Shown: piece by piece, positions 903 through 32,034 of the stretch
Position numbering within the stretch: position 1 is the first letter of the stretch
Layout of the letters: the number at the start of each line of letters is the position of its first letter
Assembly: GCA_903915665.1 (NCBI GenBank)
Contig: CAIWTT010000166.1
Coordinates: forward strand, 1 to 33,678
DNA length: 33,678 nucleotides
Source of the DNA: an uncultured Archangium sp.
Lineage (GTDB): Bacteria > Myxococcota > Myxococcia > Myxococcales > Myxococcaceae
Direction: 5' to 3'
Notes under the pieces: generated by a model
The model's input: the letters and a program-made list of their open reading frames with translations, nothing else
What the model was told of the DNA's origin: nothing
Database searches by the model: none
Program-made: the position numbers and the translations under genes

Positions 903-1802
903 TCAACAGCCTGCCCGCGCCTCGAGCCCGTGCGCCAGCGCCGCCAGCAGCGCCCGCGCGTTCACCGTCGACAGCCCACTGCATGCCGGGTCTCCGGTCT
1001 CGATGACCCGCCACTCGCCGGTCTCCAGCTGCCCTACGTCCACGCACAGCCACGGCACGCGGGTGCGCCGCGCCACCTCGTGGGCCAGGGCGCGCATCTC
1101 CCGGTCGTCGCGCTCCGAGGGCGCGCCGTAGGGGTCGCCCAGCGGCCAGTAGTAGCCCTGGGCCACCACGTCGGCGTCGAGCACGAAGAGCCGGTACTCG
1201 CGCGAGAGGGGAAAGCCCGCGTACTCCGCGCCGGTGCGCCGCAGCGGCAGCAGCTCGCGCACCAGCACGTGGTCGCGGGACAGCGTGTGCATCGCCAGCA
1301 GCTTCGTCACCAGCGCCTCGGCCTCGCGCGCGTCGTCGGCCACGCAGGCCTTCCAGCCGTAGGACTTGCGCGAGTGCACCGTGCTCTTGATGAACACCGG
1401 CGGCTTGAGCCGGCTCAAGGCCACCGGCAGCTCCGCGAGGTGACAGACCACCTCGGTGCGCGCCGTGAGGTCTTCGAGGCGGGCCACGGTGCGGTGCAGC
1501 TCCATCGCGTCGAGGTGCTGCCCCGGGTCGTTGAGCAGCGTGATGTTCAGCGCCAGCGCCTCGTCGTGCAACCGCCGGTAGCGCCCGGGTGTGGGCGTGT
1601 CGCAGACGAGCACCCCCCACTCGAAGTCGCCCCGGGCCAGGCCCGGCAGTCGGGGCATCTCAGGCTCGAGCGACGCCTCGGGGGGAATGAGGTGCACGCG
1701 GTGGCCCAGGGCCTTCGCCGCGCTCACCAGGCCCAGGCGGTCGGCGTCGGCGCGGTCGGTGTCGAGGGGTCCTTCGACGAGTAACAGCATGGGGCCCCGC
1801 AT
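903..1802 (-). CDS. ATP-grasp domain protein
   Basis: Track ORF 903..1826 (307 aa). The ATP-grasp-like region has KPPVFIKSTVHSRKSYGWKACVADDAREAEAL followed by a C-terminal fold segment with EYRLFVLDADV...VIETGDP. In-frame ATGs sit at 1802 and 1790, and the start choice is uncertain. The gene is divergent from the cNMP gene with only about 55 nt between starts. Confidence 0.65.
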   Translation of the reverse strand: MRGPMLLLVEGPLDTDRADADRLGLVSAAKALGHRVHLIPPEASLEPEMPRLPGLARGDFEWGVLVCDTPTPGRYRRLHDEALALNITLLNDPGQHLDAMELHRTVARLEDLTARTEVVCHLAELPVALSRLKPPVFIKSTVHSRKSYGWKACVADDAREAEALVTKLLAMHTLSRDHVLVRELLPLRRTGAEYAGFPLSREYRLFVLDADVVAQGYYWPLGDPYGAPSERDDREMRALAHEVARRTRVPWLCVDVGQLETGEWRVIETGDPACSGLSTVNARALLAALAHGLEARAGC

Positions 1803-1856
1803 ACCCGGCGCGGAGCCCCGGGGCACGCATCGTGAGCGAAGCGTGCCGGGCCCGTT

Positions 1857-2312
1857 ATGCCTTTGGGCATGAGCCTCAACCCGATGTTGATCTGGTTCTC
1901 GAAAGCCACGCTGTGCGACGGCCTGGGCGAAGAGGAGATCGCCTCCTTCTATTCAAACTTCGTGGTGCGCGGCTTCGCCGCCGGCGCGCCGCTGTACCGC
2001 GAAGGGGACCCGGCCGACGCCCTCTACGTCCTGCTCGAGGGCCGCGTGGAGGTGAGCCGCGGCGGCGCGCTGCTCGGCGAGGTCGGGCCCGGGTCCACCG
2101 TCGGCGAGATGTCGTTGTTCCGCGGGAGCGCGACGCGCTCGGCGACCATCACCCCGGCCTCCCAGGTGACCGCGGTGATGCTGCTGCGCCAGCGCTTCCT
2201 CGAGTTGCTGCGCGCGCGCGACGTGCCCACGCTGGTGGTGGTCAACAACCTCGCCCACGAGCTGGCCGAGCGCTTGACGGTGATGAACGCCCGGCTCGCG
2301 AAGCCGGGCTGA
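1857..2312 (+). CDS. cyclic-nucleotide-binding (CAP/Crp-effector-domain) small protein
   Basis: The cNMP-binding motifs are present: FAAGAPLYREGDPADALYVLLEGRVEVSRGGALLGEVGPGSTVGEMSLFRG...RSATITPAS. The start is an ATG at 1857. The TGA stop forms TGATCA with the stop of the convergent gene at 2313. Confidence 0.8.
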   Translation: MPLGMSLNPMLIWFSKATLCDGLGEEEIASFYSNFVVRGFAAGAPLYREGDPADALYVLLEGRVEVSRGGALLGEVGPGSTVGEMSLFRGSATRSATITPASQVTAVMLLRQRFLELLRARDVPTLVVVNNLAHELAERLTVMNARLAKPG

Positions 2313-3584
2313 TCAGAACGGCGAGCGCGGCGGGGCCGAGGTCGGCGCGGGCGGCGGCGAGGGCGCGTTCGCCGCGGCGGTCATGGCCGGCGTGGCGCCC
2401 GACGTGGCGTGCGCGGTCGGCGGCGCGCCCACCGGCGTCGGCGGCCCACCTCCACCGGGGATCTCGCCCCCCTTCGGGTTGTCCGGGTCCGGGGGAATCA
2501 GCCCCAGGTCGGGCGGCGGCACCGGCGGCGCGTCGAAGCGGCAGCCGTGCGAGAAGCAGGGCCCCATGCTGATCATCCGGCCGCCGCCGGGCTGCTTGAC
2601 GAAGCCCAGCACGCCGTCGATGTCCTTCGCGGCCTTGAAGGCGAGGTTGGGCACCAGCGGCAGGTCACCCATCGCGTCTTCGTTCTGCTCGGTGTTGGCC
2701 GTCGGGCCCAGGGCGCCCATCGCCTGCAGCTTGCCCGCGTAGGTCTCGGCCCCGTCGACCCCCGGCCGCTCCTCGGGCACCGGCGACTGCGAGTAGTAGT
2801 AGTGCTCGACGCGCGCGTAGAAGGGGTGCGCTTCGCGCTGCCCGTCGTCCGGGAGAATGGTGGCGAGGTGGTTGAGCGCCCACGGGTCGTGCAGCACGGC
2901 GAAGAAGTCGTCGCTGCGCGTGGTGCCCGACGGCAGGTCCTCGGTCTCGGTCTGCGAGGTGCCCGGCTCGCCTTCGATCTCCGACGGCGAGCTCGCGCCG
3001 CTGCCCTGCGCCCCGAAGACCCACGCGTTCGAGGTGGACGCGCTGCTGGCGTTGCCGTGCACGTCGGTGCCCTCGAACTTCCTGGTGCGCGTCAGGTCCT
3101 GCCCCCACGAGAGGAACTTCTGCACGATGAGGTAGTTCTGCACGCCTAAGCGCGCGGTGCAGCTCAGCAGCCCGCCCCGGTTGAAGCGGTGGTTGTAGCT
3201 CTGCTCCACGTTGCCCAGCCCGGGGTTCACCCCGCACGTCACCTGCTTGCCGCCGCCCATCCAGCACTGGTGCGCGCCCAGCGCCTGGTGGTGCCGGTCG
3301 TCGGCGCAGTCCACCGCGGTGTTGAACGAGTCGTAGGCCGAGCTGTGGTCGCAGAACACCTTGCGGTCGATGGCCTGCACCCGCGCCGCGGCCTCCACCG
3401 GCCTCGACAGCGACGGGAAGTCGAGCGGCGCCGCGTCCCACGCCGGGCTGGTCACCGCCTCCTGCCAGTCGAGGTTGTAGAGCAGCAGGTCGCTCAGGAA
3501 GAGCGTGTAGAGGATCATCGGGACCAGGACGATCATCAGCAGCGCCAGCTCCACCATCGCCGCGCCTCGGGGGGCTCGCCTCAC
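2313..3584 (-). CDS. TadE-like pseudopilin (large, with Pro/Gly-rich C-terminal tail)
   Basis: The GTG start at 3584 gives VRRAPRGAAMVELALLMIVLVPMILYTLF, which matches the TadE N-terminal signature (R-R-x-x-R-G-x-A-A-V-E-F-A-L-hydrophobic stretch). The GTG overlaps the upstream TGA as GTGA at 3581-3584. The protein is 423 aa and ends in a PPVPPPDLGLIPPDPDNPKGGEIPGGGGPPTP tail. Confidence 0.75.
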   Translation of the reverse strand: MRRAPRGAAMVELALLMIVLVPMILYTLFLSDLLLYNLDWQEAVTSPAWDAAPLDFPSLSRPVEAAARVQAIDRKVFCDHSSAYDSFNTAVDCADDRHHQALGAHQCWMGGGKQVTCGVNPGLGNVEQSYNHRFNRGGLLSCTARLGVQNYLIVQKFLSWGQDLTRTRKFEGTDVHGNASSASTSNAWVFGAQGSGASSPSEIEGEPGTSQTETEDLPSGTTRSDDFFAVLHDPWALNHLATILPDDGQREAHPFYARVEHYYYSQSPVPEERPGVDGAETYAGKLQAMGALGPTANTEQNEDAMGDLPLVPNLAFKAAKDIDGVLGFVKQPGGGRMISMGPCFSHGCRFDAPPVPPPDLGLIPPDPDNPKGGEIPGGGGPPTPVGAPPTAHATSGATPAMTAAANAPSPPPAPTSAPPRSPF

Positions 3585-5224
3585 TCTGCCTCCTCGGCCG
3601 TGCAGCCCGACATCTGTCGTTGACCTTCCACCGGGGCCCGCAGCTCCCGCACCAGCGTCGCGCCCTCGACGTCACCGGCGAGCATCAGCACCTCCACCAG
3701 CTCCAGGCAGCGGAAGCGCTCGAGCTTCGCGCGGAAGAACGGGTCGAAGAGGTTGGGCACCGGGACCCGGTCGCTGCCCAGCTCGTGGAAGTAGACCTTG
3801 GCCTTGGCCACCGCCACGCCTTCACCCGGCGCGAGGTGCGCCGTGGCCTTCACGTGCGGCCCCCACTTGAGCGTCACCGTGCCCTCGTCGTTGAGCTGCC
3901 ACGGCCCCTTCTTGCCCGAGCGCAGCAGCCCCAGGTCCTGCTTCACCACGCCCCAGGCGCTGGGCAGGCCGAGATCGTTGTCCTTGAGCGAGAGCGCCAC
4001 CTCGTCGCCCCCCTTGGTGCGGCCCCGCGTGCTGGGGTCGAGGCCGCGGAAGTTGATGAAGCACGACTCGGTGCGCTGGCAGACCTCCTGGCGCTGGATG
4101 CCGCGGAACTGGTCGTGGCGCCCGCTGTGCCCCGGCCCGTGCACGCCCCCCGCCTCGTCCGAGAAGGCGTTGCTCACCAGCGACCCCGAGCCCTTGCCGT
4201 GGCGCCAGCCCACCATCAACCCGCCCGCCGTCTCCGCGCCCACCGACTCGGCCTCGAAGGTGTTTCGCGGGGGCAGGGTGTGGGCCAGCTTGGTCACCCC
4301 GGCCTTGCCGTCGAAGCCCAGGCACACGCTGCCCTCGCCGCCCATGATGCCCAGCAGGTAGGCCGAGCTCGGCTGGAAGTCGGGGTGGCCCACGGCCTCG
4401 CACTGGCCCTTGGCGCAGTACTGCTGGAACGAGCCGCGGGCGGCGTTCGACACGTCTTCGATGATCACGCTGCGCTTGGGCGGCGTCAGGCGCGGCAGCG
4501 TCAGGCCCATCAGCGTGCGGCAGTCGTCGGGCTCCTTCCACCCTTCGACGGCGCACGAGAACTCGGTGCGGTTCACGGCGTGCAGCGCGGGCACGTACTC
4601 GGACCGCGGGGCGTTGCGCTCCTTGAGCACCTTGAGCGTGCCCACGGTGGGCTGGCTGACCTCGGTGGCCACGCGCTCCAGGGTGCGCTTCTGCAGCACG
4701 TGCATCGCCGCGGCGGCCTTGTTCAGCCCGTCGACGGTCTCGTTGAAGGCGGGCTCGGTGCCGATGAGCAGGGTGTCCCACTTCTGGGCCTCGGCCCCGA
4801 AGGCGGCGGAGATCTCCCGCGCCCGGTCGGCGTCGTTGCAGCACGCGTCGCGGTCTTCGGGGGGGCTGCGGCGCCCGTGGCCGCTGCGCTCGCAGCAGGC
4901 GTCTTCCTGGGCCGCGACCTGGAGCATGCCCGCCTGGCTCGAGGCGAGGATGTTCTCGGTCTGCGAGGCGATGGCGTGCCACGCGTGCACCGACATGTTG
5001 GTCACCACCAGGGCCGCGATGGTGCGGTTGGTGTAGACCATCACGTTGAGCCCGCGGGCCTCGATGGTGGCCACCGAGAAGGCCTGCGCGTCGGCCTGCG
5101 ACTGGAGCCGGATGCGCTCGTGGATGGCGCTCGAGATGCTGAAGCTCATGGCCATGGTCAGCGCCATGAAGAGCACCGAGAGCGACGCCAGCGCCAACAC
5201 CTGTCCCCGCCGGGCGTGCTTCAC
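3581..5224 (-). CDS. TadG-like pilus-assembly protein (Tad_N-type N-terminus)
   Basis: The GTG at 5224..5222 overlaps the TGA of the upstream gene as GTGA. The N-terminus VKHARRGQVLALASLSVLFMALTMAMSFSISSAIHERIRLQSQADAQAF resembles the TadE/G-like Tad_N motif (hydrophobic helix then RxxLQxAADA). About 547 aa. The track ORF 3581..5854 has an R/G/P-rich non-coding-like 5' extension, which I trimmed. Confidence 0.7.
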   Translation of the reverse strand: MKHARRGQVLALASLSVLFMALTMAMSFSISSAIHERIRLQSQADAQAFSVATIEARGLNVMVYTNRTIAALVVTNMSVHAWHAIASQTENILASSQAGMLQVAAQEDACCERSGHGRRSPPEDRDACCNDADRAREISAAFGAEAQKWDTLLIGTEPAFNETVDGLNKAAAAMHVLQKRTLERVATEVSQPTVGTLKVLKERNAPRSEYVPALHAVNRTEFSCAVEGWKEPDDCRTLMGLTLPRLTPPKRSVIIEDVSNAARGSFQQYCAKGQCEAVGHPDFQPSSAYLLGIMGGEGSVCLGFDGKAGVTKLAHTLPPRNTFEAESVGAETAGGLMVGWRHGKGSGSLVSNAFSDEAGGVHGPGHSGRHDQFRGIQRQEVCQRTESCFINFRGLDPSTRGRTKGGDEVALSLKDNDLGLPSAWGVVKQDLGLLRSGKKGPWQLNDEGTVTLKWGPHVKATAHLAPGEGVAVAKAKVYFHELGSDRVPVPNLFDPFFRAKLERFRCLELVEVLMLAGDVEGATLVRELRAPVEGQRQMSGCTAEEAE

Positions 5225-6018
5225 GAGCCCTCCTTCTTCCACGGCACCGAGCACAGGTTGGTGTCCGGCAGCTCGAAGCCCTCGAGGTCGGGCCACAGCT
5301 TGGACTGCATGCGCATGCCCCACGAGGCGCGAATGGGGAGGATGTATTCGTGCGCGTCGGCCCGCTCCTGGATGGGGACCTTCTCGATGGTGCGCTTGCC
5401 GCCGTTGGGGTTGAGGCTCTCGCGCACCGTGCCCGGCGTCATGCGCAGCGTGCGCACCGCGTCGTCGTGCTCCACCCCGCGCGCCATCATCCACAGCATG
5501 GCGTTCGCGAAGGGGATGGGCATCCGGTAGTAGAACGTCACCTGCACCTGCAGCCGCGTGACGTTGTAGGTGGCCCACGCGTCGCCCAGCAGCCGCGGGT
5601 CGTCGAAGTCCACGCCCTTGTTGAGGTCGATGCCCGCCGCCGCCGCCTGGGCGCGCAGCCGGGGCAGCGTGGGGTTGCACACCTGCACCACCACGTAGGG
5701 GATGGGCGGTGACTGCCGGTTGTCCTTGATCTTCTCCCACGAGCGCGACCACTCCGTGGGGGTGGTCGCGGGGAACACGCGCTCGATGCCCGCCGCCCCG
5801 CTGCTGGCCATGGGCATCAGCACCGCCAGGGCCGCCGTGTCCATGTCGTTCCACGCCGCGCTGCCGATGGAGCCCGCCCGCGCCGCCTTGTACGCGGCGT
5901 ACTTGGTCATCAACCGCGCCTGGTGCACCAGCGAGAGCTGCAGCGTGCCCAGGACCAGGAACACGAACAGCGGCATCACCAGCGCCGTCTCCACCGCGGC
6001 CTGGCCCCGGCGCCTCAC
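5221..6018 (-). CDS. TadE-like pseudopilin
   Basis: The GTG at 6018..6016 overlaps the upstream TGA (6017..6015) as GTGA. The N-terminus VRRRGQAAVETALVMPLFVFLVLGTLQLSLV is a textbook TadE motif. 265 aa. The track ORF 5221..6693 has a low-complexity 5' extension, which I trimmed. Confidence 0.75.
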   Translation of the reverse strand: MRRRGQAAVETALVMPLFVFLVLGTLQLSLVHQARLMTKYAAYKAARAGSIGSAAWNDMDTAALAVLMPMASSGAAGIERVFPATTPTEWSRSWEKIKDNRQSPPIPYVVVQVCNPTLPRLRAQAAAAGIDLNKGVDFDDPRLLGDAWATYNVTRLQVQVTFYYRMPIPFANAMLWMMARGVEHDDAVRTLRMTPGTVRESLNPNGGKRTIEKVPIQERADAHEYILPIRASWGMRMQSKLWPDLEGFELPDTNLCSVPWKKEGS

Positions 6019-6845
6019 GGGTGCACCTCCCGCGAGATGACCACGTCGACGTCGCCCGGGCCGGACCGGGAGGCGAGCACCGTCTGCTGCGACTTGCCGC
6101 GCGACGCCACCAGCACCTGCAGCCCGTCCACCTGCTCCACGTCCTGCAGCGACCAGCCGGTGTCCGTGAAGTGCGCCCGGTAGAAGGCGAGCACGTCCTC
6201 GGGACTCTGGGCCGGCACCGACAACCCGATGACCTGCACCGCGCGGCCCTCGTCGAGCTGGCGGAACACGCGCGGCGGCGTACCCCGGGGCGGCACCGCC
6301 ACGTCGTCGGGCAGGGCCTCGGGCGGCGCCTGGGTCAGGGCCAGCGGGTCGTTCACCGAGAGGAACACCACCGTCTCGTCGCGTTGCCGCAGGGCCGAGA
6401 CCATGTGCAGCGCCCCGCGCCCCGGGCTGCGCACCGCGTCCGTCTCCAACCACGCCACGTAGCCCGACGACGGCGAGTAGAGGTGGCGCACCGCGGGCCG
6501 CGACAGCAGCCGGAAGTACTCCGCGTAGTAGGCGAGCACCGACTCCACCGGCCACTTCGTGGAGAACCACGCGATGCCCAGCGGCGTGCCCGAAAGGGTG
6601 CTCGAGGAGAAGAGCGCCCGGGCCTCGGCGTCGGGGAACGGGGGCAGCGCGGCCAGCGCCTCGGGGGAAGGCCGCGGCGGCGAGAGCACCCACTTCGCCG
6701 CGCCCGGGGAAGCGCTGAGCACTTCGGCCTGCGCGGCTTCCAGCGACCGGTCGTTCACCGCGCCCAGGGCCGCGCCGAGCACCGCGCCCAGCAGCGCCGC
6801 GCCCCCGAGGACCCTGCCTACGCGACTGGCTCGAGGACGACGCAC
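6015..6845 (-). CDS. membrane-anchored hypothetical protein (first gene of the GTGA-coupled Tad-like block)
   Basis: The GTG start at 6845 is followed by MRRPRASRVGRVLGGAALLGAVLGAALGAV (a signal/TM anchor) and then a non-repetitive soluble domain. The stop is coupled to the next gene through GTGA. High GC3. Confidence 0.6.
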   Translation of the reverse strand: MRRPRASRVGRVLGGAALLGAVLGAALGAVNDRSLEAAQAEVLSASPGAAKWVLSPPRPSPEALAALPPFPDAEARALFSSSTLSGTPLGIAWFSTKWPVESVLAYYAEYFRLLSRPAVRHLYSPSSGYVAWLETDAVRSPGRGALHMVSALRQRDETVVFLSVNDPLALTQAPPEALPDDVAVPPRGTPPRVFRQLDEGRAVQVIGLSVPAQSPEDVLAFYRAHFTDTGWSLQDVEQVDGLQVLVASRGKSQQTVLASRSGPGDVDVVISREVHP

Positions 6846-6895
6846 CGGCCGCGAAGGCTAGCGGATCCGAGCCGCGTTCGGCAGCGCGCTTCTGC

Positions 6896-8656
6896 CTACT
6901 TCGCGTCCTCGCTCACCTGCCGCAGCAGGTGCCGGCTCATGTCGAGGCAGGGGTGCTCCTTGCCGAAGTGCGCCGGGACGCCCTGCAAAATTTTCCGCGC
7001 CTTCTTGAGGCTGGGGTACCGCCGACTCATTTCCTGCTCGTACTGCACGAGGATGGCGGTGCACTTCTGGTCGAGCTCGGGCCGGAGGTCGCGCATGCGC
7101 GTCAGGGCGAACTGCTGCAGGGCGGCGTCGTGGTCGGCCGTGGCCTCGAGCACCAGCCAGGCCTCGCGGTAGCTCTTCCACGCGCGGAACAGGTTGATGG
7201 CGCCGATCTTCTTCAGCTCGTAGAGCTGGGTGGCCTGGTCGATGGAGTCCTGCGCCCGGGTGCTGGCCTGCTGGCTGGTGAGCTCCGGCAGGGGAATCAG
7301 CTCCACCCACAGCCCGGCGATGCGCCAGGTCTCGTCGTCGTCGCCCTGGCGCACGTTCTCGAAGGTGAGCTGGTTGTTGGCGCCCACCTTGAGCAGCCCC
7401 GAGGGCAACACATGCTCCAGCTCCACGTCACTCTGCGCGGTGTCGGCGGGCACGAAGGCCACCGGCGCGCCGTTGAGCTCGATGTGCACCTCGTTCTGCC
7501 CGCAGTCGTGGGCGCGAAAGTGCAGCACGCCCACCAGCCGGGTCGCGGCGAAGGGCGTGAAGAAGAAGGCCTTCGACTCGGCGACCTGCACCTCGGCCCC
7601 CGGGCCCGCGCCGAACGAGAGCGCCAGCGCGTCGCCGTTGGGCACCAGCTCGTCGGGCATGCGGGGCCCGGTCGGAGCCGCCGTCGGTTGCTGCACCCAC
7701 ACCACCGCGGTGAAGGTGAGCATCAGGACCACGGCGAGCGCGGCCTTCAACGCCGCTGGCACCGACGCCCACCACAGCTGCGCGCGGCCGGCGCTCGTCT
7801 TCTGCAGCGCCCGCCGCTCGCGGGCCACGTCGGCGGCCAGCAGCCGGTTGCTCTCTTCGGTCAGCGACCGCGTGGGCTGCTCGGCCAGCAGGTCCTTGGC
7901 GGCTGACGACTTCGCGAGCGCCTCGCCCGGCAGCAACTCCCGGGTCGCCGCGTCTTCGAACTTCCCGTCCCACGCGCTGGCGCCGGCGGGGGCCGGGCCC
8001 TGGAGCACCGCGCGGTTGACGAGCTCCACCGTGGGGACGTCGCTGAAGCTCTCGCTGGTGGCGACCGGGGTGGGGGGCTTCACCAGGCCCCGGTTGACGA
8101 GCTCCACCGTGGGTACGTCGCTGAAGCTCTCGCTGGTGGCCGCCGGCGCCGGCGCGGCCTTGTGCGTGCCGCTGGGCCGGGGCGGGCTGAAGGCCGGCCG
8201 CAGCACCGTCGACGCGTCGAGACCGGTGGCCGCGCCCTGTGCAGGCGGAGGGGGAGGCGGGGTGAAGGCAGGCCGGAGGGTCGTCGCCTGGTCGAGCACG
8301 CTGGGGGCGGGCCGCGCCGACTCGTCGAGCGTCGACGCGGGGTCGACCCCGGTGGTGAAGAGCACGGTGACCTGGCCGATGGCGAGGCGATCTCCCGGCT
8401 TGAGCTCGGCCCGCGCGGCGAGCCGGCCCCCGTTGAGCCGCGTGCCCGCCGTGCTCTGCAGGTCTTCGACGAAGAAGCGCCCGGCCTCGTGGAAGATGCG
8501 GGCGTGCACGCGCGAGGCGAGCGCGTCGTTGATCACCACGTCGTTCTCCGGCGCCCGCCCCAGCCGCGCCGCGCCGCTCTCGAAGGTGGCCATGACGCTC
8601 GCGCCGTCTTTGGTGACGGTGAGGGTGAAGGCGGTCTTCGCGCGCGGGGGAGCCAT
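6896..8656 (-). CDS. FHA-domain membrane protein (N-terminal FHA, central TM helix, C-terminal periplasmic domain)
   Basis: The start is an ATG at 8656. FHA motifs are present: ARLGRAPENDVVINDALASRVHARIFHEAGRFFVEDLQSTAGTRLNG...KPGDRLAIGQVTVLF. There is a TM helix LWWASVPAALKAALAVVLMLTFTAVVWV and an internal 26-aa tandem repeat. Confidence 0.85.
   Translation of the reverse strand: MAPPRAKTAFTLTVTKDGASVMATFESGAARLGRAPENDVVINDALASRVHARIFHEAGRFFVEDLQSTAGTRLNGGRLAARAELKPGDRLAIGQVTVLFTTGVDPASTLDESARPAPSVLDQATTLRPAFTPPPPPPAQGAATGLDASTVLRPAFSPPRPSGTHKAAPAPAATSESFSDVPTVELVNRGLVKPPTPVATSESFSDVPTVELVNRAVLQGPAPAGASAWDGKFEDAATRELLPGEALAKSSAAKDLLAEQPTRSLTEESNRLLAADVARERRALQKTSAGRAQLWWASVPAALKAALAVVLMLTFTAVVWVQQPTAAPTGPRMPDELVPNGDALALSFGAGPGAEVQVAESKAFFFTPFAATRLVGVLHFRAHDCGQNEVHIELNGAPVAFVPADTAQSDVELEHVLPSGLLKVGANNQLTFENVRQGDDDETWRIAGLWVELIPLPELTSQQASTRAQDSIDQATQLYELKKIGAINLFRAWKSYREAWLVLEATADHDAALQQFALTRMRDLRPELDQKCTAILVQYEQEMSRRYPSLKKARKILQGVPAHFGKEHPCLDMSRHLLRQVSEDAK
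8013..8140. repeat. 78-nt tandem direct repeat (one full copy plus a partial second copy) inside the FHA gene
   Basis: The block cggttgacgagctccaccgtggg(g/t)acgtcgctgaagctctcgctggtggc occurs at 8013 and again at 8091, encoding ATSESFSDVPTVELVNR twice in the FHA protein. The period of 78 nt is a multiple of 3. Confidence 0.8.
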
Positions 8657-8762
8657 GAAGCGCGCGAGAGTATGTCACCCGTTTCGGGGCATGGGGGCTC
8701 CAACACGGTGCGCCGTGGGCCAGGGTGGTGCAGCCTCACGCGCCGTCCCGCCGCCTTGCGCG

Positions 8763-8778
8763 TGGCACGTCTCTGGCT
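8763..8778 (+). promoter_or_regulatory. candidate sigma-54 (-24/-12) promoter element upstream of the vault-protein gene
   Basis: TGGCACGtctcTGGCT matches the consensus TGGCACG-N4-TTGCW at 15 of 16 positions with correct GG/GC spacing. It lies only about 13 nt before the ATG at 8791, so the geometry is tight and the call is speculative. Confidence 0.2.
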
Positions 8779-8790
8779 CTGCGCCTCCCC

Positions 8791-10905
8791 ATGGCCGACC
8801 GGGACAGCAGCAGGGAACGCGACATCCTCGTGGCATCGAACGAGTACGCCTACGTCCAGGACCTCACCAAGGGCGACATCGTGCTCTACGTGGGCCCCAC
8901 GAAGATCTCGCTGTCGAACACCGAGCGCCTCGTGGAGCTCAAGCTCGACCGCTTCACCCCCATGCGCGGCGAAGAGGGCAACGGCGTCCAGCCCTTCGTC
9001 ACCGCGTCCAGCGCGCAGTACCTGGTGCTCGAGAACCCCGCGAAGGACCCGGCCATGCGGCCGGTCAAGGGCAACAACTCGGCGGTGGAGCTGCGCGTGG
9101 GGCGCCGCGTGGTGGTGCCCGGCCCGGCCACCTTTCCCCTCTGGCCCGGCCAGAAGGCGCGCGTCGTCGCGGGCCACGAGCTCTCCGAAGACCAGTACCT
9201 GCGCCTGCGCGTCTACGACGTGGTCGACGGGGAGAGCGCCGCCATCGGCACCGAGCGCATCATCAAGGGCAGCGAGGTGAGCTTCTTCATTCCCCCCACC
9301 GGCCTCGAGGTGCTCCCCGACGAGAAGGGCAGCTACGTGCGCAACGCCGTCACCCTGCTCGACGGCCAGTACTGCGTGCTCCGCGGGCCGAAGGGGCGCA
9401 GGCGCTACGAGCGCGGGCCGGCCGTGGTCTTCCCCGAGGCGTGGGAAGAGTTCCTGGTGAAGAACGGCACCCGGGTGTGCGCCGCCTGGCCCCTCAAGCG
9501 CGACCGCGGGCTCCACGTGCGCGTGCTCCAGGGCTTCGAGGCCCAGGAGGGCGAGGCCGTGCCGAAGGGCCGCTACGAGCCGGGCCAGGAGCTCTTCGTG
9601 CACGCCCGCGAGGGCTACTTCTTCCCCTCCGAGGCCCTGGAGGTGCTGGGCGAGGTGGCCGCGGTGCAGCTCGCCGCGAAGGAGGCGGTCTACCTGCGCG
9701 ACCTCCACACCGGCGCGGTGCGCACCGTGGAGGGCCCGCTGGCGCTGCTGCCCGACCCCACCCAGGTCGAGCGCGTCAGCCGGGTGCTCGACCCCGAGAC
9801 GGCGAGGCGCTGGGGCCTCTCTCGCGCGGACGCCTCGCGGGCGCCCACGGTGGTGGTGCCCCCCGGCGAGGCGGTGCTGGTGACCGGCACCCAGACCCGC
9901 GAGGTGCTGCGCGGCCCGGCGGTGCGCGTGCTGGCCTTCGACGAGTCGCTCGAGGCGCTGGCCCTCTCCACCGGCACGCCCAAGCGCGACGAGGTGCTGC
10001 TGACCACCTGCTTCCTGCGCGTGGAGGGGAACAAGGTCAGCGACGTGGTGCGGGTGCGCACCGCGGACCACGTGGAGCTCGAGGTGCGCCTCTCGTACCG
10101 GGTGGGCTTCGTGCACCGCGACGGCGTCGACGACGCGCGCTGGTTCTCGGTGTCGAACTACGTGGGCCTGCTGTGCGACCACCTGGGGAGCATCGTGCGC
10201 GCCGCCGTGCGGCTGACGCCCATCGAGCGCTTCCACGCGGCCTCGGCGGAGATTCTGCGCACCGCGCTGCTGGGCGAGAAGAAGGCCGAGAAGCGCAGCG
10301 GCCGCGAGTTCGAAGAGAACGGCATGGCGCTGTCCGACGTAGAGGTGCTCGACGTGCGCATCCTCGACGAGGCCGTGGAGGCGTTGCTCACCGACGCGCA
10401 GCGCACCGCCATCACCGCCGAGGTGGCGCGCAAGGGCGAGCACCTGCGCCTGCAGACCGAGGAGACCCGCGAGGCCGTGGCCCGCGCCATCTGGGCCGCG
10501 CAGCGCGAGACGCTCGGGGTGCAGAACGAGCTCGAGCTGGCTCGCCGCACGCTGCACCTCACCCAGGTGGAGGCCCATGGCGAGGCCGTGCGTCTCGAGG
10601 CCCTGGGTCGCGCCCGCGCCGAGGCCGAGGCGCTGGCCATCACCTCCAGCGCCGAGGGCCTGGCGAAGGAACGGCGCGTGGCCCTCGAAACGCAGCGCCT
10701 GGTGGCGCGCACCGCCGCCTTCAAGGAACAGATGGCCGCGCTCCACCCCGAACTGGTGGCGACCCTCAAGTCCCTGGGCAACCAGCAGTTCGCCGCGTCG
10801 CTCACCCGGAACCTCTCGCCCCTCGCCATCCTGGGTGGAGAGTCGGTGTCGGACGTGGCGCAGCGGCTTCTCGCCGGCCTGCCGGGGATGCGCGAGGAGA
10901 AGTGA
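8791..10905 (+). CDS. major vault protein (MVP) homolog
   Basis: The start is an ATG at 8791 (the track ORF begins at GTG 8725). The N-terminal MVP-repeat signature is present: [37 protein letters not shown] vs human MVP [38 protein letters not shown], and [12 protein letters not shown] vs QDPFPLYPGEV. The shoulder and cap-helix regions align strongly: [133 protein letters not shown] and [72 protein letters not shown]. A coiled-coil follows. 704 aa. Confidence 0.85.
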   Translation: [704 protein letters not shown]

Positions 10906-11968: not shown

Positions 11969-12346
11969 ATGCGCACTTCGCGCTGGTTGCTCGGTTCCCT
12001 GGCGTTGTTGGGTTGTGGACTCTCCAGCTTCTCCGGGGCAGGCGACGGCGCTGGCAGCAGCGTCGTCCCCGCCAACCCCGGCGCCAGCGGCACCCTCACC
12101 GCCGGCGCGTGGGACGACTCGCTGAACTTCCCGTCGCAGCGAAGCGGCGTCTGCGCTGCGGCTCGTGCAGGAGGGCGTCGGCCTCAGCGCGGGCGAGGGC
12201 AGGCTGAATGGACCACGAGCCGCCCCCGCCCCCGCGCCGGCTTCGAGGTGAGCACCGCGCTCAACCTGCTGCGGCCGCTGCTCGACGCCCTGCCTCAGCC
12301 GATACGGGGCGAGGCCGACGTCGACGAGAAGCTCACCCTGGAGTGA
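11969..12346 (+). pseudogene. lipoprotein-signal ORF that loses coding character after about 55 codons (probable disrupted lipoprotein gene)
   Basis: ATG at 11969. MRTSRWLLGSLALLGCGLSS is a good lipoprotein signal with an LLGC lipobox. GC3 is high for about 55 codons, then falls and the translation becomes R/G-rich. The 3' part carries a 33-nt exact copy of REC-domain codons from the gene at 19298. Confidence 0.3.
12229..12261. repeat. 33-nt exact dispersed repeat (copy 1 of 2)
   Basis: cccgcgccggcttcgaggtgagcaccgcgctca is identical to 19371-19403, which lies inside the REC-EAL gene and encodes RAGFEVSTAL. Confidence 0.85.
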
Positions 12347-15272
12347 TCGGAGCCAACGGGAGCGTCACGGTCGCGGTCGTTCCCTGTCCGACGACGCTGT
12401 GCACCTCGAGACCGCCGCCCAGGCCCTGCGCGATCCCCAGTGCCACCGGGAGCCCCAGGCCCTTGCCTCTTCCCACGCCGCGGGTGGTGAAGAAGGGATC
12501 GAAGATCCTCGGCATGATCTCGGGGGCGATGCCGGTGCCGGTGTCGACGACGCGCACCTTGACCACCCGCCCACTGACCTCGGCGCTGATTCGCACCGAG
12601 TGGGCCTGCGCCTGGCCCGCATTGACCAGCAGGCAGCCGAAGAGCTGGGCCAGCTCGGCCTCGCTGCCGGTCACGGGGGGCAGCGTCGCAGGCAGCTCCA
12701 CCGACAGTGCGGCGTCGGCGGCGCGGGCGTGGCGCGCGACCTGCGCCGCGCGGTCCAGCGCCGCGGCGAGCTCGCACGTCCCCTCGGAGGTGTGCTGGCC
12801 CAGGGCGAAGGACCGGAGATCAGCCACGAGGTCACGGACGCGCACCGTGCCGGCAGCGGCATCAGCGAGCGCCTCCTTCAGCTCGGCCAGGGAGAGGGGC
12901 GGGGCCGCGCTGAGCTGCTCCTGCGCGAAGCTGACGTTCGCGAGGATGATGGCCAGCGGGTTGTTCATCTCGTGGGCCATGCCCGCGGCCAGGGTGCCCA
13001 GCGAGGCCACCCGCTCGGCCCGCGCGGTGCGCACGTGCAGGTCCCTGAGCTGCTGCTCCGCCAGCTCGCGCGCGGTGACGTCCGTGGACATGCCGCACAA
13101 ACCGGTGACCCGGTCGTGGTCGTCACGCAGGGGGAACTTGATGGAGAGGAGCGAGGCCGCTCCCAGCTTCTCCAACCGCTCCACCACGGAGCCCGCCTCC
13201 ATCACCTCGAGGTCGACACTTCGAAAGGCTGCCGCGGTCGGGCCCGGAAACAGCTCCTGGTCGGTCTTGCCGAGCACGTGCTCGCGCTTCAAGCCGGTCG
13301 CGGCTTCCCAGCGGGCGTTGACCAGCCGGTACCGGCCGTCTCGCTCCTTCGCGTAGATGAGCGCGCCGCTGTTCTCGACGAGCTCGGACAGGAATCGCTG
13401 GCTCTGGCGCAGGGCCTCCTGCGTGCGCTTGCGCTCGCTGATGTCGAGGTGGGTCCCGGCGGCGCGCAGCGGCGTGCCGTCGGCGGCGCGTTGCATCACC
13501 ACGCCCGAGTCGAGGATCCAGACCCAGTGCCCGTCCTTGTGCCGGAGCCGGTGCTCGCACGCGTACGAGGCGGTCTCGCCCCGCAGGTGCGCGCCGAGCA
13601 CCGCGTTCGTCTCGGCCTGGTCATCGGGGTGCACCAGGTTCTCCCAGCTCGACACGTTCGGCGCGACCTCGGCCAGCGTGAAGCCCAGCATCTCCGCCCA
13701 GCGCTCGTTGAAGGTGACCCGCCCCGAGGGAACGTCCCAGTCCCAGAGCCCGAGCTGACCCCCTCGCAGCGCCAGGCGAAGCCTCGACTCGCTCTCCTCG
13801 ATCTTCGCCTCCGCGTCCCGATGGCTGGTGATGTCGACGCACGAGCCGATGTAGCCGACGAAGGTCTCCTGCTCGTCATGCTGGGGAGTCCCTGTGTCCA
13901 CCAGCCAGCGCCAGGCGCCATCGTGGCGCCGGAGCCGGTACTCCATGGTGAAGGGCACGCGCCGTTCGAACGAGCCCACGTAGGTGTCGAGGCACCGCTG
14001 CAGATCGTCCGGGTGAACGCCCTCGGTCCAGCCGTTGCCCAGCTCCTGCGCCATCGTGCGGCCGGTGAAGTCGAGCCAGGGCTTGTTGAACCAAGAGCAG
14101 CGCTTGTCCAGGCCCGAGGTCCAGATGAGCACGGGCGCGCTGTCAGCCATCGACCGGAAGCGCAGCTCGCTCTCCGAGAGCGCCGCGTGCGCCTGGAGCA
14201 GCTCGCGGTTCATCTCGCGCGCGGCCTCCACGGCGTGGTCCCGGCGGCGGAACAGCACCCAGACCAGGTAAGCGATGAGGAGGCTCAAGGCGGCGTCGCC
14301 CAGGGCCACCAGCGCGGGCCTGCGGCTCGCCAGCCGGGCGGCGAGCGGCGAACCGATCCGGAAGGAGAGGGTCCAGGGGTGACCGGAGACCGTGATGGTG
14401 CGCTGGGTCTCGAGCAGCGGGGCAACCCCGTCGGCGCCGGTGGACTCGTACAGCACCGCGGCGCTCGTCGAATCGCCGTCGTGGATCCGCATGAGCAACT
14501 CGTCGCTCCGCGCCCCGAGAGTGCCCGCGATGAGGTCGCCCATCCGGAAGGGCATGTACGCCCAGCCCAGCAGTTGCTCGCGCCGTTGGCTGACGTCGCT
14601 GGGCGCTGGGCCGCTCCGGTACACCGGCAGGTACATCAGGACGCCGGCCTGCACCGCGGTCTGCGTCTCCTGCACCAGCGTGACCTTGCCGGACAGCACC
14701 GCCCGGCCCTCGTCACGGGCCCTCGCCATGGCCTCCCGGCGCACGGGCTCCGAGTACATGTCGTAGCCGATGGCCTTGAGGTTCCTCCCGGAGTTCGGCT
14801 CGAGGAAGGTGATCGACGTGTAGAACTCGCGCGGCCCGGGGGGCCGGACCTGGTAGCCGGGCACCGCCTCCTGCTGCCCGCGGACGTGACCGTCGAGCGC
14901 AGCCGCGGGGACGACGAGCGCGAAGCCCACGCCCTGGATGCCCGGGTAGTGCTCCTCGAGGCGCAGCGCGGCGACGTAGTCGTGGAACGCGTGGCGGTCC
15001 ACGCGCTCCGAAGCGGAGAACAGGGCCGCCACCCCGCGGAGCACCTGCTCATGGGCCGCCATGCGCGTCGCCACGTGCTCCTCGGCGTCCTGCACGCTGA
15101 ACTCGAAGTTGGTCCGCAGCCGGTCTGCTTCGCCGGCATCGGAACGGCTCCACGCGCCCCACGTCACGCCCAGCCCCACGAAGAGCACCAGCCCCGAAAC
15201 GAGCACGGCGAGCCGACGCCCCGCAGGGCGCGCGAGCCTGGCCTGCGTCAGCGTGGATGTGGAGTCCTGCAC
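12333..15272 (-). CDS. sensor histidine kinase: N-terminal TM + CHASE sensor, three PAS/PAC domains, HisKA and HATPase_c
   Basis: GTG start at 15272, with the TM helix LAVLVSGLVLFVGLGVTWGAW. The CHASE-like segment reads EFYTSITFLEPNSGRNLKAIGYDMYSEPVRREAMARARDEGRAVLSGKVTLVQE. The PAS/PAC blocks contain WRWLVDTG, GHWVWILDSG and GLCGMSTDVT. The H-box is MAHEMNNPLAII, and the G-boxes are VVDTGTGI and GLGLPVALGIAQGLGG. Confidence 0.9.
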   Translation of the reverse strand: MQDSTSTLTQARLARPAGRRLAVLVSGLVLFVGLGVTWGAWSRSDAGEADRLRTNFEFSVQDAEEHVATRMAAHEQVLRGVAALFSASERVDRHAFHDYVAALRLEEHYPGIQGVGFALVVPAAALDGHVRGQQEAVPGYQVRPPGPREFYTSITFLEPNSGRNLKAIGYDMYSEPVRREAMARARDEGRAVLSGKVTLVQETQTAVQAGVLMYLPVYRSGPAPSDVSQRREQLLGWAYMPFRMGDLIAGTLGARSDELLMRIHDGDSTSAAVLYESTGADGVAPLLETQRTITVSGHPWTLSFRIGSPLAARLASRRPALVALGDAALSLLIAYLVWVLFRRRDHAVEAAREMNRELLQAHAALSESELRFRSMADSAPVLIWTSGLDKRCSWFNKPWLDFTGRTMAQELGNGWTEGVHPDDLQRCLDTYVGSFERRVPFTMEYRLRRHDGAWRWLVDTGTPQHDEQETFVGYIGSCVDITSHRDAEAKIEESESRLRLALRGGQLGLWDWDVPSGRVTFNERWAEMLGFTLAEVAPNVSSWENLVHPDDQAETNAVLGAHLRGETASYACEHRLRHKDGHWVWILDSGVVMQRAADGTPLRAAGTHLDISERKRTQEALRQSQRFLSELVENSGALIYAKERDGRYRLVNARWEAATGLKREHVLGKTDQELFPGPTAAAFRSVDLEVMEAGSVVERLEKLGAASLLSIKFPLRDDHDRVTGLCGMSTDVTARELAEQQLRDLHVRTARAERVASLGTLAAGMAHEMNNPLAIILANVSFAQEQLSAAPPLSLAELKEALADAAAGTVRVRDLVADLRSFALGQHTSEGTCELAAALDRAAQVARHARAADAALSVELPATLPPVTGSEAELAQLFGCLLVNAGQAQAHSVRISAEVSGRVVKVRVVDTGTGIAPEIMPRIFDPFFTTRGVGRGKGLGLPVALGIAQGLGGGLEVHSVVGQGTTATVTLPLAPITPG

Positions 15273-17661: not shown

Positions 17662-18255
17662 TCACGCGCGCGGCTTCCAGAACCGCGCAAAGTTCCCACC
17701 AGGCGCGGACACGATCTCCTCGGCGCGAGCGCGATCGCGCGCAGCTCCCTGGTGGTCGCCCAACAGCTCGCTGCACTCGGCGCGCAACCCGAGTGCCTCG
17801 GGGTGCTCCTGAAACGCGAGTAGCGCCTCGACGATGGCTCGTGCTTCGTCGAGACGTCCGACCATCGTCAAGATGCGCGCGCGTAGCAGGCGGGAAGCCG
17901 GCTCACCGCTCTCCTCGGCCAGGGCCGAGTCGACGTCTTTCATGGCATCGTCGAGTCGTCCGAGGGCGACGAAGCTCTTGGCCCGCAAGTTGAGCACGCG
18001 GCTCCTGTGCCCTTCGACTTCCAGGGGGAAAGCCTCCGTGAAGAGCTGAATCGCGGCGGCGTGCTCGTTCTCGGCACCCTTCAAGATCCCGAGCATGATC
18101 ACAGGTTCCGGCAAGCTCGGTGCACGCGCCCTCACGGTCTCGTACAACGAGCGCGCGCCGGCAATGTCGCCTTCGCGCTTCAGGCCGCCTGCGCGACGCA
18201 TCAACGCCGCAAGCTCCTCTTGATGGGGCGCCAGCTCGGCATCCTTCTTGACCAT
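17662..18255 (-). CDS. TPR-repeat protein
   Basis: ATG at 18255 (MVKKDAELAPHQ...). TPR-like helical repeats follow (GDIAGARSLYETV..., AAIQLFTEAF..., LGRLDDAMKDVDSAL..., GRLDEARAIVEALL). The track ORF extends to 18360 through R/G-rich sequence, which I trimmed. Confidence 0.7.
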   Translation of the reverse strand: MVKKDAELAPHQEELAALMRRAGGLKREGDIAGARSLYETVRARAPSLPEPVIMLGILKGAENEHAAAIQLFTEAFPLEVEGHRSRVLNLRAKSFVALGRLDDAMKDVDSALAEESGEPASRLLRARILTMVGRLDEARAIVEALLAFQEHPEALGLRAECSELLGDHQGAARDRARAEEIVSAPGGNFARFWKPRA

Positions 18256-18595
18256 CGGACGCGAGCCAGTAGCACATCCATCCCCCAACGGCCTCCGCGC
18301 ACGCCCTCGCCCCCGCTCCACCCCCTGTCCCGGAGCCACCCGTCGCCGCACCGCCGTCATCGCCGCTCAAGCGTGGCGGTGGTCAACGAAGGTCTGCTGG
18401 TCGAGCGCGAGCCGGCCTGTTCGTTTCCAGTGGTGGGGACCAACCCCACTCGAGGTCCTGGAGTTCCTGACACTTCGTCACCCGGCGGCTGCGGCGCAGC
18501 GCCACCGTGGCGGACCGCACGGCCCAGGCCCGCCCATCCCCTCGGGATCAGGAGGCAGTCCCCGCAGGCACGCCGCCTGCTCACGCCAGCCCCGG

Positions 18596-19184: not shown

Positions 19185-19284
19185 AGGGTGCGGCGCTGCC
19201 GGGGGGGGCGCGGCGAAAAGTGATGCGCGCCATTTTCCGCCAAGCGCCGTTTGACCGCTCCGGCCTACTCTCCTACGACGCACC

Positions 19285-19290
19285 AAGAGG
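19285..19290 (+). promoter_or_regulatory. Shine-Dalgarno (AAGAGG) 7 nt upstream of the REC-EAL ATG
   Basis: caccAAGAGGtggacccATG. Confidence 0.5.
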
Positions 19291-19297
19291 TGGACCC

Positions 19298-24802: not shown

Positions 24803-28951
<4,149 letters not shown>

Positions 28952-29010
28952 CGGGCCCTTCTACCCCGAGGGACTGACAAAATGTTCAGTACCGCGCGAG
29001 GCCGCCTTCT

Positions 29011-31983: not shown

Positions 31984-32034
31984 CCAGCTTCGTAGCGTCG
32001 CCCCCGGGGAGGTCAAGCGCCGTCTGGCTCGACC

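What the first reader, a model, noticed from the sequence alone, without database searches (positions are those of the whole stretch)
8791..10905. Bacterial homolog of the eukaryotic major vault protein
The 704-aa product aligns block-by-block with human MVP, from the N-terminal repeat signature (Y.Y..V.D......V....VGP.......ER) through the shoulder domain to the cap-helix coiled coil. Vaults are eukaryotic ribonucleoprotein shells. Bona fide MVP homologs in bacteria are rare and functionally uncharacterised. This one is a single gene with no vault partners nearby (no TEP1, vPARP or vault RNA). It is transcribed divergently from an FHA/Tad-pseudopilin operon, so whether it forms a vault-like shell, and what it would encapsulate, is open. 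At 704 aa versus about 860-890 it likely has fewer N-terminal repeats, implying a shorter barrel.
Basis: partly seen in the sequence, partly recalled or inferred. Interest (0 to 1): 0.8.

Follow-up and report, generated by a model that had tools for sequence, protein, structure and literature searches.

The report
Short bacterial major-vault-protein homolog gene
This gene encodes a real bacterial relative of the protein that builds eukaryotic "vault" particles, but such relatives are already described in myxobacteria and turn out to be common in prokaryotes, so it is a new member of a known family whose function has never been tested.

Summary
The ORF 8791-10905 (+), 704 aa, is real and is a true MVP-family protein, not only an SPFH/flotillin relative. 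The similarity to rat and human MVP runs through repeats R5-R9, the shoulder and the cap helix (phmmer 7e-30; family profile 3e-53; Foldseek 3.6e-36). The region before the shoulder is 413 aa, against about 519 in rat, so it holds 7 repeats rather than 9. The cap helix is also shorter, about 122 aa. R1, the N-terminal "signature", is supported by eye only. Close homologs fill more than 500 clusters, mostly Myxococcota, with some Planctomycetota and Acidobacteriota. The wider family has 1142 clusters at 50% identity, some with archaeal gene neighbours. Myxobacterial MVP homologs were published in 2013 and 2019. The adjacency to the FHA/TadE operon is specific to this genome: orthologs 84-89% identical lack it, and no neighbour is conserved across 64 loci. 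No TEP1, PARP or vault RNA lies in the window. The most likely function is self-assembly into a shorter vault-like cage; this is inferred, and the cargo is unknown. Verdict: new member of a known kind, moderate interest.

The parts
8791..10905 (+). Complete CDS of the MVP-like protein (704 aa plus stop)
   Evidence: ORF list; GC3 0.96; identical protein in public data; MVP similarity; dN/dS 0.16-0.42 against orthologs.
8657..8790 (.). 134-bp intergenic region between the divergent FHA gene (start at 8656, minus strand) and the MVP-like gene; presumed promoter region
   Evidence: Sequence read. No sigma-70-like consensus was found. The alternative in-frame GTG at 8725 lies here but homolog alignments do not support it.
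8791..8958 (+). aa 1-56, putative repeat R1. It is the most conserved segment of the family, and its fold is not confirmed.
   Evidence: Mean column conservation 0.87, the highest of all regions; many invariant residues; pLDDT below 50 in both AF2 models; no significant match to MVP R1.
8959..10029 (+). aa 57-413, six MVP-type beta repeats: R2, one repeat of the R3/R4/R5 type, then equivalents of rat R6, R7, R8 and R9
   Evidence: Alignments to rat and murine MVP; Vault_3 at aa 367-407 and a weak Vault_2 at aa 73-122; all-beta secondary structure with pLDDT 80-93 from about aa 110; Foldseek to the R1-R7 crystal structure.
9331..9456 (+). aa 181-222, a single copy of the unit 'YVR.A..L..G.YC.L....G..R...GP.VVFPE'. 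Some longer relatives carry this unit in 4 or more tandem copies.
   Evidence: Motif search; sequences of P0121 (866 aa, 4 copies) and P0124 (898 aa).
10030..10368 (+). aa 414-526, MVP shoulder (SPFH-like) domain
   Evidence: Pfam PF11978, 1.2e-29, covering 3-118 of 118 profile positions; found in 48 of 48 family members; weaker Foldseek matches to HflK/C, stomatin, prohibitin and flotillin.
10369..10734 (+). aa 527-648, cap-helix equivalent: one continuous predicted helix of about 122 residues
   Evidence: AF2 helix H527-648, pLDDT 74-88; aligned to rat MVP about 647-765; lowest sequence conservation in the family, 0.60.
10735..10902 (+). aa 649-704, conserved C-terminal segment at the position of the cap ring
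   Evidence: Conservation 0.73, with invariant P653, L655, L659, P677, G682 and P698; two short helices predicted at low confidence. Its resemblance to the eukaryotic cap ring was judged by eye only.

Best explanation
The gene encodes a cytoplasmic member of the prokaryotic MVP-like family, with no membrane anchor. Its order of parts matches eukaryotic major vault protein: a string of small beta-sheet repeats (7 here, 9 in mammals), an SPFH-like shoulder, one long cap helix and a conserved C-terminal tail.

By analogy with MVP and with all structurally solved SPFH proteins, many copies most likely pack side by side through repeats, shoulders and bundled cap helices into a hollow dome. Two domes may then join through the very conserved N-terminal repeat to close a cage. 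Such a cage would have a barrel about two repeats shorter per half and a shorter cap than the eukaryotic vault.

Shown: homology, domain order, repeat number, purifying selection, the lack of a transmembrane segment, and the lack of a conserved partner gene. Inferred: assembly, symmetry, closure into a full cage, and any cargo. The gene is inherited as a stand-alone gene within Myxococcota, not as part of an operon. The confidence given is for the assembly model; membership of the MVP family on its own I put at about 0.95.
For: Homology over R5-R9, shoulder and cap helix. MVP-specific repeat families across the clade. The N-terminal repeats match only MVP in the PDB. The AF2 model shows a beta-repeat string, an alpha/beta shoulder and a 122-residue helix. 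There is no hydrophobic segment (maximum KD19 1.09).

Selection is purifying (dN/dS 0.16-0.23 against the closest orthologs) and codon usage is native. Conservation is highest in R1 (0.87), the segment that forms the half-to-half waist contact and the first dimer contact in eukaryotic vaults: with PMC13100048 and PMC12280208 for the eukaryotic role.

The short form is a monophyletic clade among relatives of 800-950 aa. No gene neighbour is conserved across 64 loci.
Against: Nothing here tests assembly. Only a monomer could be modelled, and I found no paper reporting a purified or imaged prokaryotic vault. The cap helix is the least conserved region and is about 30 residues shorter than in rat. 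R1, the presumed closure interface, could not be modelled with confidence.

Only 3 of the 10 mapped residues that line the NAD+/ADP-ribose pocket of human MVP are retained (mapping onto the residues listed in PMC12280208). No TEP1, PARP or vault RNA equivalents lie in the window.
Confidence: 0.62

Rival explanations
1. The protein forms only a half-cage (dome) that sits on the cytoplasmic membrane, as canonical SPFH proteins do (HflK/C, flotillin, stomatin, QmcA). It would organise or sequester a membrane patch rather than form a closed soluble vault.
For: The shoulder has the SPFH fold (Foldseek 3e-8 to 1e-5 against HflK/C, prohibitin, stomatin, flotillin and QmcA). Every solved SPFH assembly other than the vault is a membrane-bound half-cage, and even eukaryotic vaults were recently seen bound to membranes at the shoulder (PMC13100048). 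One close homolog hits Pfam Band_7 weakly.
Against: There is no transmembrane or hydrophobic segment. Where canonical SPFH proteins carry their membrane anchor, N-terminal to the SPFH domain, this protein has 413 aa of MVP repeats. The query matches MVP_shoulder, not Band_7.
Confidence: 0.2
2. The protein does not build a large cage. It acts as a soluble scaffold, or binds nucleotides or other ligands, as a monomer or small oligomer, as the 2019 preprint speculated for bacterial MVP-like proteins.
For: Sokolskyi 2019 predicted GMP/CMP pockets in the shoulder region of the Enhygromyxa and Saprospira homologs and suggested function 'without necessary aggregation into vaults'. Human MVP binds NAD+, ADP and ADP-ribose at the shoulder. 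The cap helix is poorly conserved here.
Against: The human pocket lies between two neighbouring subunits, so it presupposes assembly. Its lining residues are mostly replaced here: R504>T396, P508>D400, H509>E401, R511>L403, D521>N414, F522>K415, W545>V438. K398, R399 and L409 are kept. A 122-residue solitary helix and a seven-domain beta string are hard to explain without lateral packing.
Confidence: 0.12
3. The gene is a recent transfer from a eukaryote, or eukaryotic contamination of the assembly.
For: Daly 2013 raised eukaryote-to-bacterium transfer for bacterial MVP homologs in general, most specifically for the cyanobacterial ones.
Against: Identity to rat MVP is 26% over 429 shared columns, against 30-44% to prokaryotic representatives and 50-89% within the clade. 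GC3 is 0.96, like the flanking genes. Orthologs occur across Myxococcota families, with identity falling as taxonomic distance grows. The gene sits among ordinary bacterial genes.
Confidence: 0.02

Closest known systems
Eukaryotic major vault protein (rat and human MVP; PDB 4V60, 4HL8, 9BW5, 9R86)
   Same: The order of parts is the same: beta repeats, SPFH-like shoulder, long cap helix, C-terminal tail. Sequence similarity is significant from about R5 to the cap helix and the fold matches along the whole chain.
   Different: It has 7 repeats rather than 9 (413 aa against about 519 before the shoulder), a cap helix of about 122 residues against about 155, and 704 aa against 861-893. Identity is only about 25%. 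The NAD+ pocket residues are mostly not kept. No TEP1, PARP4 or vault RNA lies nearby. Assembly has not been tested.
Published bacterial MVP-like proteins of Myxococcales, Cytophagales/Saprospirales and Chloroflexi (for example Corallococcus coralloides H8MNI3, Plesiocystis pacifica A6FXM1, Enhygromyxa salina A0A0C2D5V5, Hyalangium A0A085WQF1, Saprospira grandis H6L4P8; Daly 2013, Sokolskyi 2019)
   Same: Same kind of protein in the same phylum, a stand-alone gene known only from in silico work. The Hyalangium (Archangiaceae) protein is described as matching the MVP shoulder and not Band_7, as this one does.
   Different: I could not compare sequences directly with those accessions. Most prokaryotic relatives in the databases are 800-950 aa with a region of about 537 aa before the shoulder, whereas this clade is the short 700-765 aa form.
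Asgard archaeal MVP homologues (Nat Microbiol 2026, PMC12962969)
   Same: A prokaryotic MVP with cap helix, shoulder and a reduced number of repeats; its function is unknown.
   Different: The Asgard representative has 5 repeats and was modelled as a closed cup of 10 subunits. This protein is bacterial and has 7 repeats. Some closer relatives of the query have archaeal gene neighbours, such as eIF-1A and diphthamide synthase, or eIF-5A.
Canonical SPFH proteins (HflK/C, QmcA, stomatin, prohibitin, flotillin, erlin)
   Same: An SPFH-fold domain followed by a long helix that bundles into a cage roof.
   Different: Those proteins carry an N-terminal membrane anchor and form membrane-bound half-cages. 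This protein has no hydrophobic segment and carries MVP repeats in that position.
Phage-encoded MVP-like proteins (Caudoviricetes ctOa11 and ctRi15; bioRxiv 10.1101/2023.11.10.566534)
   Same: MVP-like proteins of the prokaryotic type, with unknown function.
   Different: Those are encoded in phage genomes. This window shows no phage or defence-island signal (PADLOC none; uniform GC).

Membership tests
Major vault protein family (MVP) | MVP-type shoulder domain (Pfam PF11978) | tested here: met
   1.2e-29, 103 bits against a cutoff of 25, aa 414-526, covering the full profile; found in 48 of 48 clade members.
Major vault protein family (MVP) | MVP-specific beta repeats N-terminal to the shoulder (Pfam Vault, Vault_2, Vault_3, Vault_4) | tested here: met
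   In the query alone, Vault_3 scores 27.7 bits (cutoff 28.8) and Vault_2 only E 0.013. Across the clade, Vault_3 is found in 48 of 48 members (best 1.6e-10) and Vault_4 in 34 of 48. The profile aligns through rat R5-R9 at 3e-53. Foldseek to the murine R1-R7 crystal structure gives 1e-12. The N-terminal profile and model match only MVP.
Major vault protein family (MVP) | Nine repeats (R1-R9) before the shoulder, as in vault-forming eukaryotic MVPs | tested here: not met
   The region before the shoulder is 413 aa, giving 7 repeats. One repeat of the R3/R4/R5 type stands where mammals have three.
Major vault protein family (MVP) | N-terminal repeat R1 that forms the waist contact between the two halves | tested here: inconclusive
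   This is the most conserved region of the clade (0.87). It has no significant sequence match to MVP R1, and pLDDT is below 50 in both models.
Major vault protein family (MVP) | Long cap helix directly after the shoulder | tested here: met
   Predicted helix 527-648, aligned to rat 647-765. It is shorter than the 155-residue helix of rat; that figure comes from my knowledge of Tanaka et al. 2009.
Major vault protein family (MVP) | Self-assembly into a 78-mer (D39) closed cage | not testable with these tools
   Only monomer prediction was available. I found no paper reporting a purified or imaged prokaryotic vault.
Major vault protein family (MVP) | Association with TEP1 (TROVE/NACHT/WD40), PARP4 and vault RNA | tested here: not met
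   No such domains were found in the window's ORFs scanned with Pfam, and Rfam gave no hit. The rest of the genome could not be examined. These partners are not universal even among eukaryotes.
Major vault protein family (MVP) | Basic NAD+/ADP-ribose pocket behind the 'keyhole loop' of the shoulder (human R504, K506, R507, P508, H509, R511, L517, D521, F522, W545) | tested here: not met
   The residues map to T396, K398, R399, D400, E401, L403, L409, N414, K415 and V438. Only K398, R399 and L409 are kept (alignment; residues from PMC12280208). Conservation of this pocket also varies among eukaryotes.
Canonical SPFH / Band 7 family (flotillin, stomatin, HflK/C) | Band_7 (PF01145) domain | tested here: not met
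   The query has no Band_7 hit at E<=1, and only 1 of 48 clade members hits it weakly. Similarity exists at the fold level only.
Canonical SPFH / Band 7 family (flotillin, stomatin, HflK/C) | Membrane anchor (transmembrane helix, hairpin or lipidation site) N-terminal to the SPFH domain | tested here: not met
   The maximum 19-residue Kyte-Doolittle mean is 1.09. The 413 aa N-terminal to the shoulder are beta repeats.

The most novel reading that the evidence does not exclude
The 7-repeat Myxococcota clade assembles into a true closed, two-halved prokaryotic 'mini-vault' in the bacterial cytoplasm. Across the prokaryotic family, barrel length would then be tuned by tandem gain and loss of a single repeat unit: 1 copy here, 4 or more in relatives such as P0121 and P0124. 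That would make vaults an ancient prokaryotic compartment rather than a eukaryotic invention, with a culturable, genetically tractable phylum in which to find the long-sought cargo and function.
Probability: 0.4. Interest if true: 0.7.

Novelty: new member of a known kind. Interest (0 to 1): 0.4.

Why it matters
The function of vaults has been an open question for about 40 years, and their origin is debated. Daly 2013 and Sokolskyi 2019 argued for a bacterial or cyanobacterial source, and a 2026 Asgard study argued for an archaeal one while stating that prokaryotic homologs are known 'in only a few Bacteria'.

This gene adds nothing categorically new. Following it up did show three things:
- The prokaryotic MVP family is large: 1142 clusters at 50% identity, found in bacteria and in contigs with archaeal gene neighbours.
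- Myxococcota carry a compact 7-repeat form under purifying selection.
- Repeat number varies by tandem duplication of one unit.

A myxobacterial homolog would be a practical entry point for testing whether prokaryotic vaults exist and what they hold. This locus itself gives no hint about cargo.

Tried and rejected
1. Functional link to the divergent FHA/TadE operon: rejected. None of the window's neighbours (FHA, AF_1845, TadE, the two upstream unknowns, the two downstream small ORFs, the CHASE-PAS kinase) lies next to the MVP gene in 64 related loci. In L001, L002 and L003 (84-89% identical MVP) an R2K ATP-grasp gene sits 0.2-0.9 kb upstream instead.
2. De novo search for any conserved neighbour, by clustering ORFs from the 64 loci plus the window: the only 'conserved' clusters were antisense shadow ORFs inside the MVP gene itself, an artefact of high GC.
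3. Vault RNA, Y RNA or tRNA nearby: none.
4. Defence-system context: no PADLOC hit for the protein or nine neighbours.
5. NCBIfam: no model matches.
6. Conservation of the NAD+/ADP-ribose pocket: mostly not conserved.
7. Confirming R1. Single-sequence phmmer of aa 1-180 finds no MVP. A second AF2 run on the N-terminal 210 aa still leaves aa 1-67 below pLDDT 50.
8. Counting repeats with one regular expression worked only for near relatives, so I measured the length before the shoulder instead.
9. Taxonomy of the long relatives from cluster members: no organism names were returned. Archaeal origin of some was inferred from gene neighbours.
10. The afdb50 fold library was unavailable.
11. I made no broad tree with diverse eukaryotic MVPs. 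Only a rat fragment, taken from the output, was available as an outgroup.
Full report
**1. The observation**

The window is about 71% GC throughout. An ORF runs from ATG 8791 to the stop at 10903-10905 on the + strand and encodes 704 aa. Its third-position GC is 0.96, like the genes around it. An in-frame GTG at 8725 would add 22 residues, but all relatives align from residue 1 of the ATG form. The long antisense ORFs over the same stretch, such as 8533-10746 (-), are high-GC shadow ORFs; they recurred as spurious 'conserved neighbours' in the synteny clustering. The same 704-aa protein is already in public data, called from five contigs, with the same gene neighbourhood.

**2. Is it MVP, or only an SPFH protein?**

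The evidence puts it in the MVP family.
- Pfam gives MVP_shoulder at 1.2e-29 (aa 414-526), Vault_3 at 3e-6 (aa 367-407, 27.7 bits against a cutoff of 28.8) and a weak Vault_2 (aa 73-122).
- phmmer against all PDB sequences finds only MVP chains, at about 7e-30. Query 188-651 aligns collinearly to rat 275-765, which is R6-R9, shoulder and cap helix.
- A profile of 48 clade members raises this to 3e-53 and extends it to profile positions 127-642 against MVP 217-777.
- Scanning all 48 members gives MVP_shoulder in 48, Vault_3 in 48, Vault_4 in 34, Vault_2 in 6 and Band_7 in 1.
- An AlphaFold2 model (mean pLDDT 75; 80-93 from about aa 110 to 600) shows a string of small beta domains, an alpha/beta shoulder, one continuous helix 527-648 and two short C-terminal helices.
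- Foldseek puts twelve MVP chains on top (3.6e-36 to 1.5e-29), then the murine R1-R7 crystal structures (about 1e-12), and only then HflK/C, prohibitin, stomatin, flotillin and QmcA (3e-8 to 1e-5).

**3. The N-terminus**

The first 180 residues alone do not retrieve MVP. An N-terminal family profile retrieves only MVP, at 2.4e-4, with positions 68-186 aligned to murine 53-175, which is R2-R3. A separate model of aa 1-210 matches only MVP chains, best E 1.5e-5 over about 150 columns. Residues 1-67 stay below pLDDT 50 in both models. The R1 'signature' (YAYVQDL...[15 protein letters not shown] against YHYIHVLD...[15 protein letters not shown], the rat string being from my memory) is plausible but unproven. 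This same segment is the most conserved in the clade (0.87, against 0.60 for the cap helix).

**4. Repeat number**

The shoulder starts at aa 414, against about 520 in rat; the domain boundaries are from my knowledge of Tanaka et al. 2009. The alignments assign query 188-413 to rat R6-R9, query about 143-187 to an R3/R4/R5-type repeat, and query 57-142 to R2. That gives seven repeats.

Among 254 relatives with an intact N-terminus, the query's clade has a median of 413 aa before the shoulder. The 135 more distant representatives have a median of 537 aa, range 349-585. Two longer relatives, P0121 (866 aa) and P0124 (898 aa), carry four or more tandem copies of a 47-aa unit, 'YVR.A..L..G.YC.L....G..R...GP.VVFPE'. 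That unit occurs once in the query, at aa 181-222.

In a rough neighbour-joining tree rooted on a rat fragment, the 700-765 aa forms are one clade. Its sister is 946 aa and all other representatives are 800-950 aa. The short barrel is therefore clade-specific and probably derived. The cap helix is also about 30 residues shorter than in rat.

**5. Distribution and descent**

Close homologs fill 525 clusters at 90% identity. A full HMMER scan of cluster representatives at 50% identity finds 1142 clusters at E<=1e-3 and 523 at E<=1e-30.

Named genomes with the short form are mostly Myxococcota:
- Archangium, 80-89% identity
- Myxococcaceae and Archangiaceae, 66-71%
- Polyangiales, Haliangium, Labilithrix and Kofleriaceae, 49-58%

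There are also Planctomycetota (51-62%), Blastocatellia/Acidobacteriota (55-56%), and single MAGs labelled Clostridia and Methanosarcinales. Two other relatives sit among archaeal genes: eIF-1A with diphthamide synthase, and an eIF-5A-like gene.

Identity to rat MVP is 26% on 429 shared columns, below every prokaryotic representative at 30-44%. dN/dS against the closest orthologs is 0.16-0.23. Taken together, this is an old, selected, native gene and not a recent eukaryotic import.

**6. Genomic context**

A 586-aa FHA protein (6896-8656, -) is transcribed divergently. Upstream of it lie an AF_1845-family gene, a TadE gene and two unknown genes. This block is not linked to MVP elsewhere: none of the window's neighbours lies beside the MVP gene in 64 loci. 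In L001, L002 and L003 the R2K ATP-grasp gene (window 903-1952) lies 0.2-0.9 kb upstream of MVP. The roughly 6.8-kb stretch 1836-8656 is thus an insertion here or a loss there. Clustering the ORFs of all the loci found no conserved partner. The window has no TROVE, PARP, vWA or NACHT domains, no Rfam family at gathering score, no tRNA and no PADLOC hit.

**7. Mechanism**

The protein has no hydrophobic segment. It has a seven-domain beta string, an SPFH-like shoulder and a 122-residue helix. In MVP and in every solved SPFH assembly, these elements pack laterally into a cage, with the helices forming the roof (PMC13100048). I therefore favour self-assembly into a shorter vault-like dome or cage. 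The very conserved R1 is the candidate half-to-half interface, because that is its role in eukaryotes (PMC12280208; PMC13100048).

This is inference; nothing here tests assembly. The NAD+/ADP-ribose pocket of human MVP is mostly not conserved, with 3 of 10 mapped residues kept. The rival readings are a membrane-bound half-cage, a non-assembling ligand binder, and recent transfer from a eukaryote, which is effectively excluded.

**8. What is known**

Daly et al. 2013 listed MVP homologs in Corallococcus, Plesiocystis, Microscilla, Saprospira, Flexibacter and Herpetosiphon. Sokolskyi 2019 analysed proteins from Myxococcales, Cytophagales and Oscillatoriales, including a Hyalangium (Archangiaceae) protein with an MVP-type rather than Band_7-type shoulder. 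A 2023 preprint reports phage copies. A 2026 paper reports Asgard copies with five repeats and states that bacterial homologs are known in only a few Bacteria. I found no paper reporting a purified or imaged prokaryotic vault.

**9. Verdict**

The claims of rarity and of a meaningful FHA/Tad context are not. This is a new member of a known kind, and interest is moderate. The family is still functionally unknown and larger than the literature implies, but this locus adds no functional clue.

Noticed in passing
window 24803-28960 (-): A single 1385-aa ORF (GC3 0.94) joins a type IA topoisomerase (Toprim plus Topoisom_bac, aa 7-599) to a RecQ-type helicase (DEAD, Helicase_C, RecQ_Zn_bind, HRDC, aa 729-1381). 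The two usual partner enzymes, topoisomerase III and RecQ, are fused in one polypeptide.
   Followed up: no
window 1836-8656: A roughly 6.8-kb block lies between the R2K ATP-grasp gene and the MVP gene only in this genome. It holds a cNMP-binding gene and a five-gene minus-strand cluster: a 414-aa unknown, a 547-aa unknown, TadE, an AF_1845-family gene and an FHA protein. In L001, L002 and L003 the R2K and MVP genes are 0.2-0.9 kb apart, so this is an insertion or deletion polymorphism.
   Followed up: partly
window 8791-8990 (aa 1-67 of the MVP-like protein): The most conserved segment of the family (0.87 mean conservation, many invariant residues) is the least confidently modelled. pLDDT is below 50 in both the full-length model and the N-terminal-only model. 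This could reflect an interface that folds only in the assembly, or a shallow alignment.
   Followed up: partly
P0121 (866 aa) and P0124 (898 aa), relatives from JGI metagenomes: These carry four or more tandem, near-identical copies of a 47-aa unit that is single-copy in the window protein (aa 181-222). Repeat number, and so presumably barrel length, changes in this family by tandem duplication.
   Followed up: partly
L066 (P0122, GCA_964354285.1), L067 (P0135) and L063 (Methanosarcinales MAG): Relatives at 38-45% identity sit among archaeal genes: eIF-1A with diphthamide synthase in L066, and an eIF-5A-like gene in L067. L063 comes from a MAG labelled Methanosarcinales. MVP-like proteins therefore seem to occur in archaea other than the published Asgard cases.
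   Followed up: partly
window 8533-10746 (-) and equivalent positions in 40-50 related loci: Long antisense ORFs (up to 737 aa here) overlap the MVP gene and appear 'conserved' across loci. They are shadow ORFs produced by the high GC content, not genes.
   Followed up: yes
window 12333-15272 (-), 18224-20446 (+) and 29011-32034 (-): Other large genes in the window are a CHASE, triple-PAS, HisKA, HATPase sensor kinase; a receiver-EAL phosphodiesterase; and a 1007-aa pentapeptide-repeat protein. None is linked to the MVP gene in other genomes.
   Followed up: no
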